Source of the DNA: Paecilomyces variotii
Lineage: Eukaryota
Strand: one strand, 5' to 3'
DNA: 64,000 nt
Assembly: GCA_004022145.1 (NCBI GenBank)
Contig: RCNU01000001.1
The stretch's first letter is position 1. Each line of letters opens with the position of its first letter. Both the position numbers and the translations under genes were made by a program. Of this stretch, positions 10,332-20,380 are shown piece by piece. The notes beneath the pieces were generated by a model. That model saw only the letters and a list, made by a program, of their open reading frames with translations, made no database searches and was not told the DNA's origin.

Positions 10332-11876
10332 ATGAGCGGACAGAAAGCGGTCGCGGAGAATATGCTTTGGGGGGGTCGATTCACTCGTCAGTCATGGTCA
10401 CTCAATTGCTGTTTCCCCGACCGTGTGAGTCACTGAAGCTAACCCGACAAATCTAGAGGGACTCGACCCTCTCATGGTCCAGTACAACCAGTCTCTGCCC
10501 TACGACCGGATCCTTTGGAGCCAGGATATTGCTGGATCGATCGCTTTCGCCAGAGCGAACAGCAAGACCGGCATCCTCACCCAGCACGAATTCGCCGAGA
10601 TTGAGCGCGGCTTCAAGCAGATCGCAGAGGAATGGCGGACAAATACCTTCGTCGTCAAGGAGAATGACGAGGATATCCACACCGCGAACGAGCGGAGGCT
10701 GAGCGAGATCATCGGGAAGGAAATTGGAGGAAAGCTGCACACGGGACGGTCCAGGAACGAACAGATTGCGACAGACATGAGACTCTGGCTCCGTGATGAG
10801 CTCCGCAAGCTGGACGGCTACCTGTCTGACCTGATCAAGGTCGCCATTGCCCGTGCAGAGAAGGAAATCGACTACATCATGCCTGGTTACACTCACCTGC
10901 AGAAAGCTCAGCCTGTTCGATGGAGCCACTGGCTGCTGTCCCACGCCACTGCATTCGCATCCGAACTGCAGCGTCTCCGTGAGGTCACCAAGCGTGTTAA
11001 CCGCAGCCCTCTGGGCACGGGTGCCTTGGCTGGAAACCCTTTCCACATTGACCGTGAGGCGATGGCCAAGGAATTGGGCTTCGAGGGCTTGCTGTACAAC
11101 TCGATGAACGCCGTTGGGGACCGTGACTTTGCCATGGAGACGATGCAGTGGGGTAGTTCGTTCATGCTGAAGATCTCTCGCTGGGCGGAGGATCTTATCA
11201 TCTACAGTAGTCTCGAGTTCGGTTTCGTCCGTCTGGCAGATGCGTACTCGACGGGCTCGTCCTTGATGCCTCAGAAGAAGAACGCAGGTGAGTCATCTTT
11301 TTTGGGGAGCCTTTTCTTTTCTTTTTTAAATTTATTTCATCAAACTGAAAGCTAACTCCGTGCATAGACAGTCTCGAACTTTTGCGAGGCAAGGCTGGCC
11401 GTGCCTTTGGCCACATGGCCGGTCTCATGATGACCATCAAGGGTCTGCCCACCACATACAACAAGGATCTCCAGGAGAGCGTGGAGCCTCTTCTCGACCA
11501 CATCAAGACTGTCGCCGATAGCATCCAGATCGCTACCGGTGTCCTATCCACTCTGACCACGATCCCAGAGAAGATGATCGCTGCTCTGGCACCTGAAATG
11601 CTCGCCACCGAGTTTGCTGACTACCTCGTCCGAAAGGGCGTGCCTTTCCGCGAGGGTCACCACATCTCCGGCCGTGTGGTCGCGCTGGCCGAGAAAAACA
11701 ATGTCCCCATGGACACTCTGACCTTGGAGCAGTTGAAGGGGATCGATGCTCGGTTTGACGAGGACGTCATGGCCTGTCTTGACTATGACCGTGCTGTTGA
11801 GCTGAAGGATGCCATTGGTGGCTGCAGCAAGCGTGCTGTGAGGGAGCAGATTGATGTGCTCAAGGGACTCCTCTAA
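10332..11876 (+). CDS. ARG4: Argininosuccinate lyase (exons 10332-10386, 10457-11287, 11368-11876)
   Basis: [36 protein letters not shown] and the signature [17 protein letters not shown] formed across intron 2. Confidence 0.97.
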
Positions 11877-12393: not shown

Positions 12394-14554
12394 TTACTTC
12401 CCACCATCCAAATAATACGTAATCGGATACTTCAAAAACCGACACTGCTCCAAATCCTGAAACCCCGCCTGCCGACTCGGATAATCCATCAGTCGTATCG
12501 GTCCCTCACTCCCTTCAACTGGATTCCATGGTCCCGTCTCCCTCACAGCATCCAAGGTATTCACATACCCTCGTACCTTGAGATAATCCTCCTTCGGATT
12601 CGGTTGGCCTGACTTGACGAATTCCGCAAAGTAGCCTGATGTCAACTGCATCGAGGACAGATCATCTGCGTCTCGAAGAGTGGTCAACGTGCCAAATACC
12701 CATGGGAGGTCGGACCCGTGCAGACGGAAATAAGGCAGGTTCGGATCTCCGTATGGGTATTCTGGTGTAGATGGGGGTCCGCCGAGGTTATTGGGGTCGT
12801 AGCCACCAAATGTACGTTCCATTTGATAGTAATATGTAGAGGAGGATGGGAAGACGCCGGATTTCATGCCCGCGTAGACGGTGGCTTGGTCGATGCAGCG
12901 GAATTGGTTATCTGTTGCGATGCGTTGGGAGACGTTGAAGGAGTCGAGGGTGATGTTGCCGGTGTCGTAGTAGGGGAAGAGGCCAGAGTCAATGATGCTT
13001 TGGGCATAGGAGGTGCTGATGCTTAGAGAGGTGGCGATGCCTTCTACTTCAGAGCTGATGGGTGTTTGGGGGTATGTTGAAAAGGATGCGCCGTCGTTGG
13101 CGCAGTTGCCGAATATAACGGGGACATGGGCGGTGCTACCGTTCCTGTTGACGAGGTCGAGTTCTTCTGTATTCACATAATGGCCGTCCTGGACAACGTA
13201 TCTCGCGACGGTGGAGAGTCCGACAAGGGATAGGGCTGGAACTTGTTTCAGACATTCGATCTGTGCTGTGAGATCGGTCTGGTTGCACCCAGCACCTGAG
13301 AAGATCTGTTCTCCAGCGGCAGTGTAGGATTCTGCTATTGTCAAGTAGGAGCTATATGTTGTCGCGTAGTCTCCTGTCAAACCGAGATCAACACCGCCGC
13401 CAAGGTTGGACATGGCAATGGCTCCCTGGAACTTTCCCAGGGCTGGGGGGGATCCAAGCAGGACGCGAACTGAGCCTGCTCCTGCAGATTCGCCGATAAT
13501 GGTAATCTGATTGGGATCTCCACCGAATTGGGCAATATTATGGATAGTCCACTATAGATATACTTTGTTAGCTGTTGTTCCGATAGCATAAAAGAAATTT
13601 AATACGGCTTGCCTGCAATGCCGTAATTTGATCAGCGATTCCATAATTCCCCTTGATTCCCGCCCCCGGAATAGCAAGGAATCCCAACGTGGATAAACGA
13701 TAGTTGATCGTAACAACAACAATATCCTCGCGAGAGGCCAAATTGCCTCCGTCCGTTTCGGGATCTGCCCCTGAACCACTTGTGAAACCACCTCCATGGA
13801 TCCAGAACAGGACGGGCTTCAGCGTTTCCTTCGAGTTGGCTCTAGGGATGTAAGGCGTCATGATGTTCAGGAAGAGACAGTCTTCGCTTCCGCTGCCCAC
13901 TTGTGCGCATTGCGATCCGTAGGATGTGGTCTGGATGGTCTGAGATTTCTTTGAATAGAGCTTTGGATAAGTGAACCTCTCAGGTGGATCGGCGTATGGG
14001 ATGCCTAGGAAGCGAAATGACTTCTGGTTGCGATATCCAATGTATGTGTTTCCGCTTGAAGTGATCTGGATTTCATTTGATGTCGTAGCACCTCCTGTGG
14101 TACTATTTTCGTTGCTTGACTGTGTACATAGTACAGGCAGCTCGGCAGCATCTGGGGAGGATTCAGAGAACGTCAAATGAGAAACGCCTTCTTCCACTGA
14201 GACAGCACCCTCTTTAATCCAATACCTCTGGCTAGGAACACTCCTTCCAGAATACTCTAGATAGGATAAAGTATTGACAAAGTCATCCTGATGCTCCTGT
14301 AGAGTGCTTCGAGATAACAGCGACTCGCCAACAGCCGCACATCCATCCGTCGCTTGCTCTTTGCTCATAGGATCAAGCAGGATTGCCCCAACATGATTAA
14401 CATCATCAGAAGCATTCAGGTTATTCTGATACAGAAGAGTGAGTGATGTCTTGGCATTGGTAGCTAGCGTACTTGTATTCCCACGAGAGCCATTGGGGTA
14501 TCCGACGGCAGCACCCAAGAGGCATGCAAGAATACCGAGCTTTGACAACATCAT
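12394..14554 (-). CDS. Secreted type-B carboxylesterase/lipase (exons 14554-13613, 13551-12394)
   Basis: Signal peptide, FLGIPYA, SEDCLFLNI, WIHGGGF oxyanion motif, NYRL, FGGDP, catalytic GESAG, HGSDL. The single intron has a GC donor. Confidence 0.93.
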
Positions 14555-15677
14555 GGCTCCCGCGGATGGTACGAACCGCTAGCCATACAGCGCGCAGTGC
14601 AGATTATTAGATAGGAACTCCATGGTCCACGGCGGGTTTTTATGTGCCTTGAGACAATAACGCGCTACTGTCTCCTATCGTCCGAGTAATGCTGATCATA
14701 TCTTCTTCAAATTAGCCTATATTGAAGGGGTCTCCACTTTTCAGAACAGTAGTACAGGACCACTGGGGTTGTAAAAGAAGTTCAAAAAGATTCGTGGCTA
14801 AATACTGCAGTCGATTAGTTGCTTAATGAATGCGTGCCGTTTTCTTGAATTCTGCAAGGGAGAATGCGGGGGAAGCTCGTGATGCTTGAAAATCCCTCCA
14901 ATGGGATGGCTCATCGTGGGAACAAAATAAATGCACGATATTCTAAGCCTGCATTGGCTATAATAAACCTGGGGTAATAGATCTGGAGAAATAAGTATTA
15001 TCCGAATCTAATCTGCCGTGGAATAACCTTTGACTGTCTCTTGGAAGAAGTGGTGTTCTGAGGCACGAGGACGATTATTTACCTGGATGAGTAAATGTTC
15101 CATTGTACTGGAGCTTCTTAACTCGTACATCCACTTGATTCTTTGCGCGAGATGCTAGACTGCTGTCCTTTGTGACTCTTTGATGAAATGTATTCTTTTG
15201 TTTGATCAAAATCATAGCATCTTTCCTGTCGTGGAATCCACTGTTCCTTTGTATACCTATTCAAGGCAAGTCGCCAAACGGACGTGCGCGCCGCAGATAC
15301 GGAGACTGACCAGCCTTGCGGATACAATTATATCCTTCAGGTAATACCTATAGTTGCTATGATAAACGACACAGAAAATGAATTAGCACGAGCGCAAAAG
15401 TTATTCACCTGCGTCTCTCAATCAACGGCAGTACCATTGAGGGCTTCATTTTGCTATGAAACCCAACAACGCTCGTTCTAGAGGCCCACTTAATGATAAT
15501 ATCCTCCATCGAGCATTATACGATTTCACTTTCTTTGTTTCCAACAGTATCAAACAAAGCGGAGCTATCCCCCGGGACGCAACCCCTGCAGCCTATCAAA
15601 GCCAGCTCACCCAGGGCTCTCTCCCATTCACCCACGCCACATATATAACAAACAAAGGTTCACCACAACAACAGGGA

Positions 15678-15929
15678 GCCTTGATGGCTCAGTGGTTAGA
15701 TCCTCTGCTCTAGCTACTGGTACCACAAAGGCCCCCTGTTCGAATCAGTCGGTTGACGCGAGGTAATTAGAATAGGTTCATCCCTTCCTTCTAATCACCG
15801 AGGACCGTCGTAAAATCCGCAGATTCGCAGAATGCAAAATCCTGCCTGCCAAAAGCATGGTGGGCTTTTCGTAGCATCCTTTACAGCTCTCTGATATAAA
15901 GGAGAGTTGTGAAGGGTGTGAGCTTTTTT
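15678..15929 (+). ncRNA. Putative RNA polymerase III transcript with tRNA-derived head and structured body (unidentified ncRNA or tRNA-SINE)
   Basis: ATATATAA 15641-15648, A box TGGCTCAGTGG 15685-15695, B box GTTCGAATC 15738-15746, several hairpins including an 18-bp stem 15875-15918, T6 at 15924-15929 and T7 at 15941-15947. Acceptor stem does not close, so not an intact tRNA. Confidence 0.7.
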
Positions 15930-15998
15930 GGGTCCGTGACTTTTTTTCTTTCATGTCGTTTTTGGCGTATAATCTTTGTGGTTGCGTTGATAAAAATA

Positions 15999-16174
15999 TG
16001 TCAGCGCATAAAGCGAACGCCAGGTGATCTGTCTTTGAATCGTAGAACCTGCTAGATTACTTGATTACTCTAGATCCTTTGTATACCTTTAGAGATAAAT
16101 ATGGGTTCAACTCTCCTCTAGATCTAAACGTAAACAAGCGATTCTAGTTTTTCAGGTCAGACCTTGCTTCCGTG
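15999..16174 (+). repeat. Degenerate dispersed repeat, copy 1 (copy 2 at 55361-55564)
   Basis: Collinear shared blocks: TGTCAGCGCATAAAGCGAACG-CCAGGTGATCTGTC, AACCTGCTAGATT, TAGAGATAAATATG-GGTTCAAC, TTCAGGTCAGACCTTGCTTCCGTG. Confidence 0.8.
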
Positions 16175-16789
16175 CTAAATGATTAGACATAATACCTACC
16201 TAATATGTGATATTGAGTAAGCCATGCTGTTGTTTGATATATATATAATGACGGCTATGCCAAATCACACATTAGATAAATTGCAAGTATGCATATATAC
16301 CTGATTAGGCCACTAGATAGACACCAAGCGTATCATGCAAGCACCTCACAAGATGAGTGCCAGCGACTTGAAAAGAACGCGAGCAGCCGTAGCCCAAAGT
16401 ACCTTGAGAACTATGATGATGACTAAATTTGTGCTACGCTGAGAGCGACAGCCTGTGGTATTACTAGCTGAACACCTATGTGACACTCATCGGAAAGGAA
16501 CCTTGTGCTAGACCTTCAAAGGGGATCCGACTTAGACCTATAGACTCCTAGCTTTGGCGATATTTTTCGGCTTCCTGTAGCGTCAACAAACATGGAGGAC
16601 TCCAGGAGCGGGAAAGTGAATGTGCTAGGACAGTAGATATACAGTACAAGCAAGGAGAATACCAATCTGTGATGACTACTTTGCACGTAGACGAGGGGCT
16701 TTCAAGTGATGTAACACACAATGAGCTTCAGTGAGATACTACAACCTCAAAGCTCCATGTGAATTGCCTGGTCTATGGAATATAACCAC

Positions 16790-17760
16790 ATCTATGAGTG
16801 TCCTGGCTGGACTTGCTTGGTGCCATGGCCAAACCTGAGAGCAGTAGCGCATATCTCAAGGGTGAAACAAGAGACAGCGCGGAGTCGACGCATTTCACAA
16901 GGCTGAGGGCTTGTACGGAATACTTGAACTGTCTAACTGGCAACTTCTGTCGGATCCAACAAGTTTCAGGGAAGAAGGGAATGGGGCATGCGAGAAGGAA
17001 GACCGCGGGGCTTGACGGACTGCTTCCACATGTCGAAAACAGGATCGATGAATTTGTCAGTCTGCTGGTCGCGTAACTAGGTATTATCATCATTAATTGA
17101 GTGAGTGGTGGGCCTTGCTTTCATGACGACATCCCGGCTGACTGATACTTGCTCAGGGGAACGCGCAGATACCGCCTGAAAAGAACAAATGATGCTAGAT
17201 ATTTTAACGGAGGACACCCGGGCCAACAGATGGCAATGGCTCTTTGCTTTGTTATCATGTGCCTTGCTCAGCAGCTCAGCTTAGCCACAGATCAGTATCC
17301 GGTCTATTGGAAGATGGGACATGCGCCGTCAGTTTCTCACATAAGCGGATCCTGACAGCTGTCAAACCGAGAGGTTGGACCTGGACAGTGACGATCGTTC
17401 TATGTTGACAAGGACAAGATTTGATTTGGTGTCTAGTGGTCAATAGTTTGAGCTCGCGTCTCGGTTATGGCAGGAGTCGATTGGTCCGATAGAACGCATA
17501 GACCAAAAGGTAGTCTTATCTGACTTGAACTCTTTACCACGGCGGGGAAAGCTTGGTCTGGATTGTAAATCATTCAAGTTCGTAGTTAGCCTGGACGGCA
17601 TTAGGTAAGTGCAGACAATGGTGCTGGTTAGACGAGGCTTGTTCAGAATCGGAGAATACTCTGCTGCATGGTCCCCGTTACTTCGTCGATTAGGGGCCGA
17701 TTCGGATGGAACCGCACGATTGGGAACCATCACCATCTTAGTCTGAAGACCAAGCCGAAG
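16790..17760 (+). pseudogene. Possible cytochrome P450 relic
   Basis: Broken peptides in plausible order (GNFCRI; HARRKTAG...LLPHVENRIDEFVSLL; AWSPLLRRLGADSDGTARLG) reminiscent of the N-terminal half of fungal P450s. No heme motif found. Confidence 0.25.
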
Positions 17761-20380
17761 AACCCCGGTCGTCCTTGCGGCTGAAGCCCGAGGAGAAGAA
17801 GACAGGGATCAGAAGCCTTACCAGGTCAGCCCTATCACTGAGACTTGTCATTTTTTTTTTCGACGATGCCATGCTAGGAAGTAGGAACCAAGACGATGAT
17901 GGGCTTGATACTCAAACTGTCCTCGCCTGGCGCAGGTGACACCGTGTGGAATCTGGATAGTTGGCACTGCTTGTCAGGTCAACGGGCATTTCGGATGATA
18001 CTATGAAGCTAAGTAGCTGACAGCAACAGTCACGCGAAGCTTTGTTGGTCCGCATGGAATGGATTATTATCGCGTCCGCGCGTACATTTTCTTCCAAGTG
18101 CCCCGCAGACGGGACAACATCAAGAAAGAAACCCATTATTATTGCTCCAGGATCATCTGTTAGACTAGACCAGCACGGAGATTCGCGGACAGACCTCCAT
18201 CCCTGTTCTCTCCAGCACATCATATTAGGTGATTGAGCAAATGCAGCTAAAACATTCATATTGCATATCTCTGGTTTTCGGACAGTCCGCGCCAAGCATC
18301 GATTCCTGCAGAGCGGCGTAATCCGCGAGAAAGCCCCTAATCGAACGCACAGCCACAGGTCCTATCGACAATCTCCTGCAGATCAATCTGTCAACTTGTC
18401 AACTAAGACGAAGCGTACGGAGTAGTTATCCTGTCTCCACGTCGATCACAATCAAGTTCAAGGTCCTTCTACTCCAGAACCAGCGCAATGGTAATGTCAT
18501 GGCCGTTGCCTCGGCATGTCAAATCTAGGCTAATGAGATTCAATGCTCAGGAAAGGTGACACCATCAATCGCTCTCGTCGACGTGATCCGTCCTTGATTT
18601 GCAAAAGAGATAATATCAGGTCTCCTGCGCGAAATCAAGTTGGCTTGACCGGAATACTCCGTCAGTAAGCACAGTAGCAGTATAGTACATAGCACGAAAA
18701 CATTCTTATTATTCCGGATTAGTTGACACGAAAACGTTCCGTGCTAGATCACGCTAGAAAACAATGTCACATAAGAGCCAAAAGGACACGCGAATCGCAC
18801 GGACTTCGAAGAACCTTCTGTGTGGCTCGTGAACAAAAAAAAAAGGGCGCCAAAATTTTTAGAAGAAAAAACAGTCTGACAAAAAAGCTTCCGAGGGCTG
18901 GCTGAATGCCCTACTACTCTAAAGCCTCGGCTCCAATCCGCACGGACACTCTGCTGAACCGAACCCTAATATTATTATTGTGAGTCGGTTATTTCCGTGG
19001 GAATGACTTCTATGGTACTCTATAATTTAATCCCTGCAAGAAAGAGCCAGGCCAAAACTAAATCCGAATAGGATCAATGTCGCGAAGCCGAAGCGGTCTA
19101 TCGTGGTATAGTTCGTTCGTTCGTACCATAGTAATTACAGTGGAACACCCAACCCATGGTCAGCGAAAAGCATAATGCGAACCAATCTCAAAAGTGGCTG
19201 GTATTGTACCTCGGAAGTTGAGTCGGAACACACAAAATCGAGGCGCAAAACCACGATATGTGGCTTATCTCGGAAAAGCAAAAAAAAAAAAAAAAAAAAA
19301 GATTTTTCCCAATTTCAATATGTATTTTAGTGGTTCTCGTCCCCACATTCCGACATCTTATTTCTCTTTCGACTTTTTTGGGATTGCAGGAACCGGTGGG
19401 CATAGCCACAGCGCCACAGGATCGATCGAAGATGGGGAAGAACTACTAACGAGTTTAGTTCGGCGCTACCACTAGTTCGCACTTCGTTCCATCGCACCCC
19501 AGTCGGCGATCAAGGGTCTAGGATCTAGGTACGGATTCGTATCCGGGTTTTCGGGTCGTGGCTTGATTTGATCAACTTGCTTTCTTTCACCGTTTGGTTA
19601 AATCATGGGGGGCTGGTGAGATTAAGATGGGCCTTACTTGAGGCTATTGAAGGGCAGGTGACACAAGTGAGATACAATCATTTTTTTGTTGGTTTTTTTT
19701 CTCTCGTCTCTTGTGGAATATGTTGTGGACTGGTTGTTTTCGGGGTTTACTATGTGGGGAACGTCATGGAGAGCAGAGTACGTACTCCGGGTGCGGAACT
19801 CAGTGTAGATAGATAGTACTAGTAGTAAAAAAGACTAAGAGGAGAATAATGCACAACACAGAAGGATTTTCTCTCAAGAATGTCTTGATTCTTTTGCATT
19901 TTTTTGCAAATTCTCTATCTATCTAATTTCCTTCTTGATCATTCTGATCATTCCGTCACAATTTGGTATACATGATATGTATGAAAGAGTAGAAATCCCA
20001 TGTCCACAAGAAAAAAAGAGATTCGCTGAAGAGCGGCGATAGACAAGTGAAACACCAAGAAGAAAATATAAACTCCAGAACTATCCATGTCGTGTAAAAT
20101 ATAGTCGCGGGTCGCCCGTATGTAAGAAACCAACTCCGTGCTCGCTAAATCGCTTCGTGAAATGAAATGTGATGACACTCAAGATAAGAGACATAATGGA
20201 AATATAATATGGCGGGATTTGTGCGTCTCGCCGGTCGCAGATAGTAAGGAGATGTCCGACGCGGTATGTATGGGCGAACATTGTACGGGAAGTCGAGGTA
20301 ATGATATGTCCGAAATGGTGGTGAGAATTAGGTTGATTAAGAATGAGAAATGAACGATTGATAAAAAGGTTCGATTCGAT

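What the first reader, a model, noticed from the sequence alone, without database searches (positions are those of the whole stretch)
15641..15947. Complete-looking Pol III transcription unit for a ~250-nt structured RNA that is not a tRNA
Seen: TATA-like ATATATAA about 30 nt upstream of a tRNA-style start (G15678), consensus A box (15685) and B box (15738), but D stem imperfect and no acceptor stem partner. Downstream is a chain of hairpins: GGTAATTAGAA/TTCTAATCACC (15762-15799), GCAG/CTGC (15827-15845), CTGCCAAAAGC/GCTTTTCGTAG (15846-15874) and an uninterrupted 18-bp stem with several G-U pairs (15875-15918); the 3' TGAGC can pair with GCTCA near the 5' end; T6 and T7 follow. Intact promoter boxes with a lost cloverleaf and G-U-rich stems suggest selection at the RNA level. 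Established: tRNA-derived internal promoters drive SINEs and some fungal ncRNAs, and Neurospora microRNA-like RNA precursors are Pol III transcripts. Inference: a novel or poorly known fungal ncRNA, a milRNA precursor, or a tRNA-SINE. I saw no SRP helix-8, RNase P/MRP or U6 signature.
Basis: partly seen in the sequence, partly recalled or inferred. Interest (0 to 1): 0.82.

Follow-up and report, generated by a model that had tools for sequence, protein, structure and literature searches.

The report
tRNA-derived Pol III small RNA gene
A Paecilomyces mould carries what looks like a working gene for a roughly 255-base, tightly folded small RNA built on the fossil of a tRNA gene; it matches no catalogued RNA family, but it resembles tRNA-derived, SINE-like units already described in related moulds.

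Summary
No tRNA is predicted and no Rfam family matches.

The + strand folds far better than shuffles (z -5.2). The 3' hairpin has 19 pairs, 5 of them G.U, and is strongly strand-specific (z -8.4 against -2.7). The tRNA-like head has refolded into a long hairpin.

Protein identity places the window in Paecilomyces. In an isolate assembly, 15400-15831 lies in one contig only. At least two further contigs lie on the last ~94 nt (two hairpins plus T-run), and their likeness ends at the T-run. No target-site duplication was found.

In relatives the RNA body differs about 2-3% and the flanks about 6% or more. The listed changes fall in a loop or keep pairing. One contig from an RNA library lies on 15680-15850; this is a hint, not proof of transcription.

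Best reading (0.5): a lineage-restricted Pol III gene for a tRNA-derived structured RNA. Main rival: a low-copy SINE-like relic of the AfuSINE2 kind. No fungal genomes could be searched, so wider conservation, the other copies and the function stay open.

The parts
15641..15648 (+). TATA-like box ATATATAA, about 25-32 nt before the predicted start
   Evidence: Sequence. The role is inferred from the TATA dependence of fission-yeast Pol III genes (recalled).
15671..15680 (+). Predicted transcription start zone. A15673, preceded by C, lies 12 nt before the A box.
   Evidence: Inferred from the distance to the TATA box and the A box. The one contig from an RNA library that was laid begins at 15680 (record 17).
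15685..15695 (+). A box TGGCTCAGTGG
   Evidence: Exact match to TRGCNNAGTGG. 3 matches in the window against 0.94 expected.
15738..15746 (+). B box GTTCGAATC, beginning 53 nt after the start of the A box
   Evidence: 3 matches against 2.41 expected. The A+B pair has an expectation of 0.0028 per window.
15670..15740 (+). Domain 1: the former tRNA body refolded into a long imperfect hairpin. Its 12-bp upper helix is 15689-15700/15709-15720, and its lower stem reaches into the B box.
   Evidence: -38.5 kcal/mol, z -5.6. The minus strand gives -37.0, z -5.2, so this domain has no strand bias. pair I2.
15741..15827 (+). Domain 2: long irregular hairpin whose top is 15762-15799. A15765.C15796 is a mismatch here and a G-C pair in the relatives.
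   Evidence: -23.3, z -2.4; minus strand -28.8. pair I4. table 3 (15765 A>G in X7, X15, X17).
15844..15865 (+). Domain 3: short G+C-rich hairpin of 8 pairs, followed by TTTT
   Evidence: -12.5 against -8.4 on the minus strand.
15874..15919 (+). Domain 4: 19-bp uninterrupted hairpin with an 8-nt loop and 5 G.U pairs, ending 4 nt before the T6 run
   Evidence: -30.0 kcal/mol, z -8.4, 0 of 200 shuffles as good; minus strand -13.0, z -2.7. Pair list..
15836..15929 (+). 3' module (domains 3 and 4 plus the T-run), shared with at least two other contigs of the same isolate assembly. The likeness ends at the T-run.
   Evidence: X1 depth is 139 up to 15831 and 339-517 in 15832-15939. Record 2 covers 15836-15906. 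Table 4 shows deletions at 15907 and 15912 in 2 contigs. Table 7 shows loose ends behind 15929 and 15930.
15924..15929 (+). T6, the predicted Pol III terminator
   Evidence: Sequence. The other copies stay alike up to here and no further.
15941..15947 (+). T7, a possible back-up terminator. GTGAGCTTTTTT and GTGACTTTTTTT form an 18-nt-spaced direct repeat.
   Evidence: family D1.

Best explanation
This is a gene, restricted as far as seen to Paecilomyces and close relatives, for a small RNA of about 255 nt (about 15673-15927, + strand) made by RNA polymerase III.

Inferred mechanism:
- TFIIIC binds the internal A and B boxes, which survive from an ancestral tRNA gene.
- TFIIIB is placed over the TATA-like box.
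- Transcription starts about 12 nt before the A box and stops in the T6 run, with T7 as a back-up.

The tRNA body no longer forms a cloverleaf. It has been remodelled into a long hairpin, as in rodent BC1 RNA (recalled). Three more hairpins follow. The last is a 19-bp G.U-rich stem directly in front of the U tail, the usual landing site of the La protein.

The last 94 nt (two hairpins plus terminator) are a module that also occurs at two or more other loci, so the unit is a composite: a unique tRNA-derived promoter head plus a shared 3' module.

Shown here: the motifs, the fold, the strand bias, the copy pattern, and lower divergence than the flanks. Inferred: Pol III transcription, the RNA ends, La binding and any function. 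My guess for function is a stable structured RNA or a precursor of hairpin-derived small RNAs, as for Neurospora Pol III milRNAs, which have a T-run right behind the small RNA (PMC3547838, passages read).
For: 1. All four promoter and terminator signals are in the correct order and spacing. The chance expectation is 2.4e-6 per window.

2. There is no tRNA and no Rfam family. One search gave 0 matches at gathering score in 64 kb. Searches gave only generic hairpin hits at 11-18 bits against thresholds of 36-93.

3. The + strand folds at -96.3 kcal/mol, z -5.17. The minus strand gives -83.2, z -3.17. Domain 4 gives z -8.4 against -2.7. All 5 non-Watson-Crick pairs of domain 4 are G.U on the + strand, with none A.C. 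Under strand-blind transitions that is 1 in 32 (my arithmetic).

4. Relatives:
- Organism B has no listed difference in 15651-19719's RNA part, that is 15651-15719 (record 20).
- It has 4 differences in 15690-15845 (record 21).
- It has 10 substitutions plus 5 gaps in 15428-15608 (record 18), and at least 10 in 15937-15996 (record 23).
- My approximate tally is 6 of 252 in the RNA against 22 of 350 in the flanks, Fisher p 0.03. With gaps it is 7 of 252 against 32 of 350, p 0.0014.

5. The six listed substitutions inside the RNA fit the fold:
- 15773, 15776 and 15779 lie in the apical region of the domain-2 hairpin (15776 sits in a 3-bp apical mini-stem in the MFE).
- 15882 switches U.G and C-G.
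- 15765 switches A.C and G-C.
- 15720 touches a terminal U.G pair.

6. Other copies of the 3' module lack 15881 and 15912, which pair with each other, so the stem is kept (table 4).

7. A 171-nt contig from a metatranscriptome (X17) lies on 15680-15850 with 5 differences (record 17).

8. Neither 15400-15831 (X1) nor the window holds a second copy, and there are no flanking direct repeats of 8 nt or more. It therefore does not behave as a dispersed repeat.
Against: Transcription is not shown. The tool states that a contig in an RNA library does not prove RNA. In the second RNA run (X15) contigs cover the whole 800 nt at similar depth, 25 on the RNA against 15-17 on the flanks, as DNA carry-over would.

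Conservation is seen only among very close relatives, and my counts come from tables that omit 44 + 16 rows.

Domains 1 and 2 fold as well or better on the minus strand, so they could be DNA palindromes.

This genome carries an A.C mismatch in domain 2.

The shared 3' module, with likeness ending exactly at the transcript end, is also what 5'-truncated retrocopies or SINE relatives would show.

A dispersed repeat lies only 65 nt downstream.

No orthologue outside the species complex could be sought, because no fungal genomes are held.
Confidence: 0.5

Rival explanations
1. A low-copy SINE-like retroposon or its relic, of the kind called AfuSINE2 in Aspergillus fumigatus. It would have a tRNA-derived head with Pol III boxes, an unrelated body, and a 3' part shared with other family members. 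It may be transcribed but has no host function.
For: PMC5063351 (abstract and sections 14, 16, 20 read) describes eight tRNA-related elements of 140-493 bp. They have A/B boxes and no cloverleaf fold, are single or low copy (3 of 5 tested gave one Southern band), and 5 of 8 are transcribed.

Here the last ~94 nt recur in at least two other contigs, and the likeness stops at the T-run, that is, at the RNA's 3' end. That fits RNA-mediated copying or a shared tail.

A dispersed repeat lies next door at 15994-16200.
Against: 15400-15831, head included, lies in one contig only at 80% likeness or more in the isolate assembly.

There are no flanking direct repeats of 8 nt or more.

The unit ends in a T-run terminator, not in an A-rich, microsatellite or LINE-like tail.

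The A box is exact, whereas the AfuSINE2 boxes are described as degenerate.

Divergence is lower than in the flanks and substitutions fit the structure.

The other copies keep the stem through a paired deletion.
Confidence: 0.27
2. A leader-type Pol III gene, as in yeast RPR1 and SNR52 (recalled). The tRNA-like 5' part would be only a promoter-bearing leader that is cut off. The product would be the downstream RNA, perhaps just the 94-nt two-hairpin module, made from several loci. It might be processed further into small RNAs.
For: Only the 3' module is shared between loci, and it is the part with the strongest strand-specific structure.

Neurospora milR-1 to milR-4 all have a T-run immediately behind the small RNA, and milR-4 is cut from a tRNA-containing Pol III transcript (PMC3547838, passages).

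Domains 1 and 4 give weak generic pre-miRNA-like hits only.
Against: The head has no acceptor stem (2 of 7 pairs by my reading), so RNase P or RNase Z recognition is unlikely.

The head and domain 2 are as well kept in relatives as the module.

The one contig from an RNA library spans the head and domain 2 (15680-15850).

No small-RNA data could be consulted.
Confidence: 0.13
3. A decayed tRNA pseudogene that happens to be followed by hairpins and T-runs. It would be neither transcribed nor selected.
For: The cloverleaf is lost. By my reading the arms keep 3 of 4 pairs (D arm), 3 of 5 (anticodon arm), 3 of 5 (T arm) and 2 of 7 (acceptor stem). Transcription is unproven.
Against: The boxes are intact while the rest of the tRNA has decayed.

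The fold has z -5.2, and the 19-bp stem has only wobble departures.

Divergence is lower than in the flanks.

The joint signal expectation is 2.4e-6 per window, though over some 250,000 scanned windows that is still about 0.6.
Confidence: 0.07
4. A known essential Pol III RNA (SRP RNA, RNase P or MRP RNA, U6) too diverged for Rfam.
For: The size and the TATA + A/B-box architecture resemble yeast SCR1 and RPR1 (recalled).
Against: No such family appears even at E<=10 with lax filters on 291 and 801 nt. By eye I see no GNAR-capped helix-8 motif and no CR-I or CR-V (motifs recalled). Part of the RNA is multi-copy.
Confidence: 0.03

Closest known systems
AfuSINE2 tRNA-related SINE-like elements of Aspergillus fumigatus (PMC5063351)
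   Same: Same fungal order. 5' part with A and B boxes that cannot fold as a cloverleaf, a tRNA-unrelated extension, 140-493 bp, single or few copies, several transcribed.
   Different: Here the A box is exact, a clean T6/T7 terminator closes the unit, no target-site duplication was found, and the structure is strong and strand-specific. Sequence likeness to the published elements was not computed, because paper sequences may not be typed into tools. By eye only, domain 3 resembles a stretch of AfuSINE3-1a; this is untested.
BC1 and 4.5SI RNAs of rodents (recalled; 4.5SI with A/B boxes and a TATA-like box at -31/-24 is in the abstract of PMC10137851, seen in the listing)
   Same: tRNA-derived, single-locus Pol III genes with internal A/B boxes helped by an upstream TATA-like box. 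In BC1 the tRNA part is refolded into a hairpin.
   Different: Animal lineage, shorter, and with known RNP partners. No homology is claimed.
Neurospora crassa Pol III milRNA loci, especially milR-4 (PMC3547838)
   Same: Fungal Pol III transcripts in which a hairpin arm lies immediately before a T-run. milR-4 has a tRNA moiety upstream.
   Different: milR-4 uses true tRNAs cut by RNase Z, and milR-1 has no A/B boxes. Here the tRNA part is not a substrate-like cloverleaf. No small-RNA evidence is available.
Leader-promoter genes RPR1 and SNR52 of Saccharomyces cerevisiae (recalled)
   Same: A and B boxes lie in a tRNA-like 5' segment in front of a non-tRNA RNA.
   Different: Their products are RNase P RNA and a C/D snoRNA. 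Neither is matched here, and cleavage of a leader is untested.

Membership tests
tRNA gene | Cloverleaf with acceptor, D, anticodon and T arms | tested here: not met
   ARAGORN finds 0 genes in the window. Rfam tRNA gives no match at E<=10. The acceptor has 2 of 7 pairs by my reading.
Type-2 Pol III gene | Internal A box and B box at tRNA-like spacing | tested here: met
   TGGCTCAGTGG at 15685 and GTTCGAATC at 15738, starts 53 nt apart. The chance expectation for the pair is 0.0028 per window.
Type-2 Pol III gene | Run of T's as terminator downstream | tested here: met
   T6 at 15924-15929 and T7 at 15941-15947.
Type-2 Pol III gene | Occupancy by Pol III/TFIIIC and a discrete transcript | not testable with these tools
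   Only one 171-nt contig of an RNA library lies on 15680-15850. The tool warns that this does not show transcription.
SINE | Many dispersed copies of the whole element | tested here: not met
   In the isolate assembly X1, 15400-15831 lies in one contig only at 80% likeness or more. Only 15832-15939 carries further contigs. The window holds a single copy.
SINE | Target-site duplications flanking the element | tested here: not met
   No flanking direct repeat of 8 nt or more with seed 6. Shorter ones cannot be told from chance.
SINE | 3' tail that is A-rich, a simple repeat, or shared with a partner LINE | tested here: inconclusive
   The unit ends in T6, with no A-rich or repeat tail. Whether the shared 94-nt module matches a LINE 3' end could not be tested, because no genome is held.
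Rfam families (SRP, RNase P/MRP, U6, snoRNAs, Afu_ families, all 4227) | Covariance-model score at or above the gathering score | tested here: not met
   0 matches in 64 kb. The best weak hits are mir-186 at 17.7 bits against 70, and mir-1287 at 14.7 bits against 93.3.
Fungal milRNA precursor | Hairpin with a T-run right behind the small-RNA arm | tested here: met
   The 19-bp stem ends at 15919 and T6 starts at 15924. The feature is as described in PMC3547838.
Fungal milRNA precursor | Argonaute-bound small RNAs of defined size from the hairpin; Dicer or RNase Z dependence | not testable with these tools
   No small-RNA data within reach.
AfuSINE2-type element | tRNA-related 5' end with A/B boxes, no cloverleaf, unrelated extension, low copy | tested here: met
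   Searches set against the description in PMC5063351. This is a likeness of kind; sequence homology was not tested.

The most novel reading that the evidence does not exclude
The 94-nt two-hairpin module with its U tail is the working part of a small, Paecilomyces-specific family of Pol III RNAs made from several loci. At this locus a fossil tRNA has been recruited and refolded to serve as its promoter. The 19-bp G.U-rich hairpin would be either a Dicer/Argonaute substrate (a fungal counterpart of Pol III-driven viral and Neurospora miRNA-like RNAs) or a La-bound regulatory RNA. That would make it a new class of fungal Pol III regulatory RNA rather than a transposon relic.
Probability: 0.2. 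Interest if true: 0.7.

Novelty: new member of a known kind. Interest (0 to 1): 0.45.

Why it matters
Very few Pol III transcripts beyond tRNA, 5S, U6, SRP and RNase P RNAs are known in filamentous fungi, and how new small-RNA genes arise there is poorly documented.

This locus would be a clean case of a tRNA gene turned into the promoter and first hairpin of a new structured RNA, joined to a hairpin module that recurs in the genome.

It also offers a compact native Pol III promoter and terminator for Paecilomyces, useful for guide-RNA expression.

If it proves to be only a SINE-like relic, it still shows that the 'single-copy SINEs' reported in Aspergillus may be better read as young RNA genes or composites.

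Tried and rejected
1. The window's own genome is not held, so copy number, the other copies of the 3' module, synteny and covariation could not be examined directly.

2. Public collections:
- A 22-nt stretch from the top of the long hairpin, unchanged in all laid copies, found 0 loci in metagenome contigs, 0 in prokaryote genome contigs and 0 in viral contigs. None of these collections is built for fungi, so this says nothing about distribution.
- An A-box-to-B-box pattern found 1 locus, L001. It is an AT-rich contig that shares only the 21 nt around the A box and has no tRNA call. It is unrelated.

3. Sequencing runs:
- Of 24 listed runs I laid 4.
- In X17 nothing lies on the flanks or on 15859-15939. 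In X15 contigs cover everything.

4. Earlier findings of this scan: nothing near the place, by sequence or by words. The eight notes listed concern other organisms and did not bear on this.

5. Coding reading: the three small ORFs over or beside the unit have no Pfam match at E<=1.

6. Literature:
- Five word searches found no description of this RNA.
- The 22-mer occurs in no held paper.

7. By eye, domain 3 resembles a stretch of AfuSINE3-1a in Table 1 of that paper (about 27 of 38 columns, with 4 gaps). By rough scoring this is not significant. I could not align it with a tool because sequences from papers may not be typed.

Full report
WHAT IS THERE

- ATATATAA at 15641-15648.
- An exact A box, TGGCTCAGTGG, at 15685-15695.
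- A B box, GTTCGAATC, at 15738-15746, starting 53 nt after the A box.
- A chain of hairpins.
- T6 at 15924-15929 and T7 at 15941-15947.

The long stem has 19 pairs (15874-15919), not 18. It holds 14 Watson-Crick pairs, 5 G.U pairs and no mismatch. The proposed long-range TGAGC/GCTCA helix and the 4-bp GCAG/CTGC helix exist as letters but are too short to mean anything, and the minimum-energy fold does not use them.

The A-box strand pairs with the former anticodon and variable region in a 12-bp helix, and a lower stem reaches into the B box (pair I2).

IS IT MORE THAN CHANCE?

The A box alone is expected 0.94 times per window and is found 3 times. The B box is expected 2.41 times and is found 3 times. 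Under a first-order Markov model of the window:
- An A+B pair at tRNA-like spacing is expected 0.0028 times per window.
- A TATA-like box, A box, B box and T6 together are expected 2.4e-6 times per window.
- Over a scan of some 250,000 windows that still amounts to about 0.6, so the motifs alone would not be enough.

The structure adds to the case:
- 15676-15928 folds at -96.3 kcal/mol against -70.0 +/- 5.1 for 200 shuffles. None does as well (z -5.17).
- The reverse complement reaches -83.2 (z -3.17).

Taken apart:
- Domain 1 (15670-15741) folds equally well on both strands: -38.5 and -37.0.
- Domain 2 (15741-15827) folds slightly better on the minus strand.
- Domain 3 favours the + strand: -12.5 against -8.4.
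- Domain 4, the 19-bp stem, is strongly + specific: -30.0, z -8.4, against -13.0, z -2.7.

All five departures from Watson-Crick pairing in domain 4 are G.U on the + strand and none is A.C. If they were strand-blind transitions, that would happen once in 32 times (my arithmetic).

WHAT IT IS NOT

- It is not a tRNA. ARAGORN finds no tRNA in the window.
- It matches no Rfam family. None of 4227 families reaches its gathering score in the 64 kb.
- With lax filters and E<=10 on 801 and on 291 nt, only generic hairpin hits appear: mir-186 at 17.7 bits against a threshold of 70, mir-1287 at 14.7 against 93.3, and a few others at 11-13 bits. No tRNA, SRP, RNase P/MRP, U6, snoRNA or Afu_ family appears.
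- Read as a tRNA by hand, the head keeps 3 of 4 D-stem pairs, 3 of 5 anticodon-stem pairs, a perfect T loop with 3 of 5 T-stem pairs, and 2 of 7 acceptor pairs. It is a fossil in which the promoter boxes survive.
- The small ORFs over the region have no Pfam match.

WHERE IT COMES FROM

The neighbours are ordinary chromosomal genes:
- Argininosuccinate lyase at 10429-11876 (my reading of the translations; not run against Pfam).
- A type-B carboxylesterase at 12394-14578.
- Further away, an ALG6/8 glycosyltransferase, an RRM protein and an MFS transporter.

The carboxylesterase piece is 98% identical to a Paecilomyces variotii protein, 92% to P. lecythidis and 81% to Rasamsonia. The window is therefore from Paecilomyces (Eurotiales). 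No whole genome is held for it.

COPIES AND RELATIVES

The only route to other genomes was the index of sequencing runs. One search listed 24 runs:
- 20 hold part of the stretch, from 12 studies.
- 6 hold half or more of the sampled words; all are 'organism A'.
- 6 are on record as RNA; all are food-fermentation metatranscriptomes with shares 0.18-0.36.

I laid 4 of the 24 on 15400-16200 at 80% likeness or more.

In the isolate assembly X1, one 43-kb contig carries the whole stretch without a difference. It may be the window's own source.
- From 15400 to 15831 and from 15940 to 15993 nothing else lies on it.
- On 15832-15939 the summed depth rises from 139 to 339-517. A 74-nt contig lies on 15836-15906, and two contigs carry deletions at 15907-8 and 15912. 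So at least two further loci share the last ~94 nt.
- Loose ends behind 15929 and 15930 in two other runs (X7, X15) show that the likeness stops at the T-run. There the other copy carries a different short spacer and then a T10 run.
- The other copies lack 15881 and 15912, which pair with each other in the stem, and carry C at 15882 opposite G15911. The hairpin is kept.
- From 15994 onward a different, much more abundant dispersed repeat begins: depth up to 3478, and alternative letters in 12-14 contigs. It is separated from the RNA by 54 nt that lie in one contig only.

Organism B (X7) and the two RNA-library runs carry orthologous contigs.
- In X7 the differences listed for record 20 (15592-15719) all lie before 15651.
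- Record 21 (15690-15845) has 4 differences.
- Record 18 (15428-15608) has 10 differences plus 5 gaps.
- Record 23 (15816-16029) has 13 plus 4 gaps, of which 10 are listed at 15937-15996.
- My approximate tally is 6 of 252 in the RNA against 22 of 350 in the flanks (Fisher p 0.03). With gaps it is 7 of 252 against 32 of 350 (p 0.0014).
- The tables leave out 44 and 16 rows, so these are estimates.

The six substitutions listed inside the RNA fit the fold:
- Three (15773, 15776, 15779) fall in the apical region of the domain-2 hairpin (15776 sits in a 3-bp apical mini-stem in the MFE).
- 15882 switches U.G and C-G.
- 15765 is G in all three relatives and pairs with C15796. The window's A leaves an A.C mismatch.
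- 15720 touches a terminal U.G pair.

IS IT EXPRESSED?

This is not shown. X17, a metatranscriptome, gives one contig of 171 nt that lies on 15680-15850 with 5 differences. X15, another metatranscriptome, gives contigs over the whole 800 nt at similar depth, 25 on the RNA against 15-17 beside it, as DNA carry-over would. The tool itself warns that a contig in an RNA library does not prove transcription. I count this as a hint only.

HOW IT MOST LIKELY WORKS

The best-supported reading is a type-2 Pol III gene.
- TFIIIC binds the A and B boxes.
- TFIIIB sits over the TATA-like box. The TATA requirement is known from fission yeast (recalled).
- Transcription starts about 12 nt before the A box. 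A15673, preceded by C, is the best candidate, within 15671-15680.
- Termination falls in T6, with T7 as a back-up.

The product would be about 255 nt, with four hairpin domains and a U tail directly behind a 19-bp stem, the usual La site. All of this is inference from the anatomy.

The unit is a composite of a unique tRNA-derived head and a 3' module shared with other loci. What it does is open. The two options I rank highest are:
- A stable structured RNA in the manner of BC1 (recalled).
- A precursor of hairpin-derived small RNAs. In Neurospora the confirmed milRNA loci all have a T-run immediately behind the small RNA and depend on Pol III, and milR-4 is cut from a tRNA-containing transcript (PMC3547838, abstract and passages).

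COMPARISON WITH WHAT IS KNOWN

The closest description in print that I found is the AfuSINE2 set of Aspergillus fumigatus (PMC5063351; abstract and sections 14, 16, 20 read). It comprises eight tRNA-related elements of 140-493 bp with A/B boxes, no cloverleaf, an unrelated extension, single or low copy number, and five of eight transcribed. That is the same kind of object.

As a SINE in the strict sense, the present unit fails two defining tests:
- It has no dispersed full-length copies.
- It has no target-site duplication of 8 nt or more.

It also ends in a terminator rather than in an A-rich or repeat tail. On the other hand, a 3' part shared between loci, with likeness ending at the transcript's end, is what retrocopies or SINE relatives would show. 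I therefore keep the SINE-like relic as the main rival (0.27).

Other readings are less likely:
- A leader-type gene as in RPR1/SNR52: 0.13.
- A dead tRNA with chance hairpins: 0.07.
- A diverged essential RNA: 0.03.

Five literature searches found no paper on this RNA.

VERDICT

It is most likely a young, lineage-restricted Pol III RNA gene built on a tRNA fossil, which makes it a new member of a known kind. The evidence for selection is modest and comes from close relatives only. Expression and function are unproven. The decisive comparisons need fungal genome assemblies that were out of reach here. Interest 0.45.

Noticed in passing
window 15994-16200 (and beyond): A dispersed repeat starts about 65 nt after the T6 run. 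In the isolate assembly X1 the summed depth rises from 139 to as much as 3478, and 12-14 contigs carry alternative letters at 16140 and 16150. Loose ends with differing flanks pile up before 15999. Several contigs skip 38-58 nt between 16029 and 16092. It is probably a MITE-like or transposon-end family with internal length variants. No terminal inverted repeat was found in 15940-16800.
   Followed up: partly
window 15860-15869, 15918-15929, 15936-15947: Three similar units of the form GTG-R-(G)-C followed by T4, T6 and T7 follow one another (families D1 and D2), as if a terminator-like unit had been duplicated. The T4 inside the RNA could be a weak early stop.
   Followed up: no
window 15765: This genome has A where organism B (one of two contigs) and both RNA-library relatives have G. 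The A leaves an A.C mismatch in the domain-2 hairpin. Together with T at 15882 (C in the relatives), the window's own changes are C-to-T or G-to-A transitions.
   Followed up: partly
run X7 on window 15428-15845: Organism B yields two different contigs over the same stretches: records 18 and 19 with 10 and 22 differences, and records 21 and 22. This suggests two haplotypes, two strains or a duplicated region in that sample.
   Followed up: no
L001 236-286 (minus strand): A metagenome contig from an AT-rich eukaryote carries a tRNA-like A box and B box with no tRNA call, next to (AT)n and (ATG)n microsatellites. It looks like an unrelated tRNA-derived SINE.
   Followed up: partly
window 10429-11876 (+) and 12394-14578 (-): An argininosuccinate lyase gene with one intron near 11350 (my reading of the translations, not confirmed by Pfam), and a 698-aa-type carboxylesterase gene split by an intron near 13560. 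Ordinary housekeeping surroundings.
   Followed up: partly
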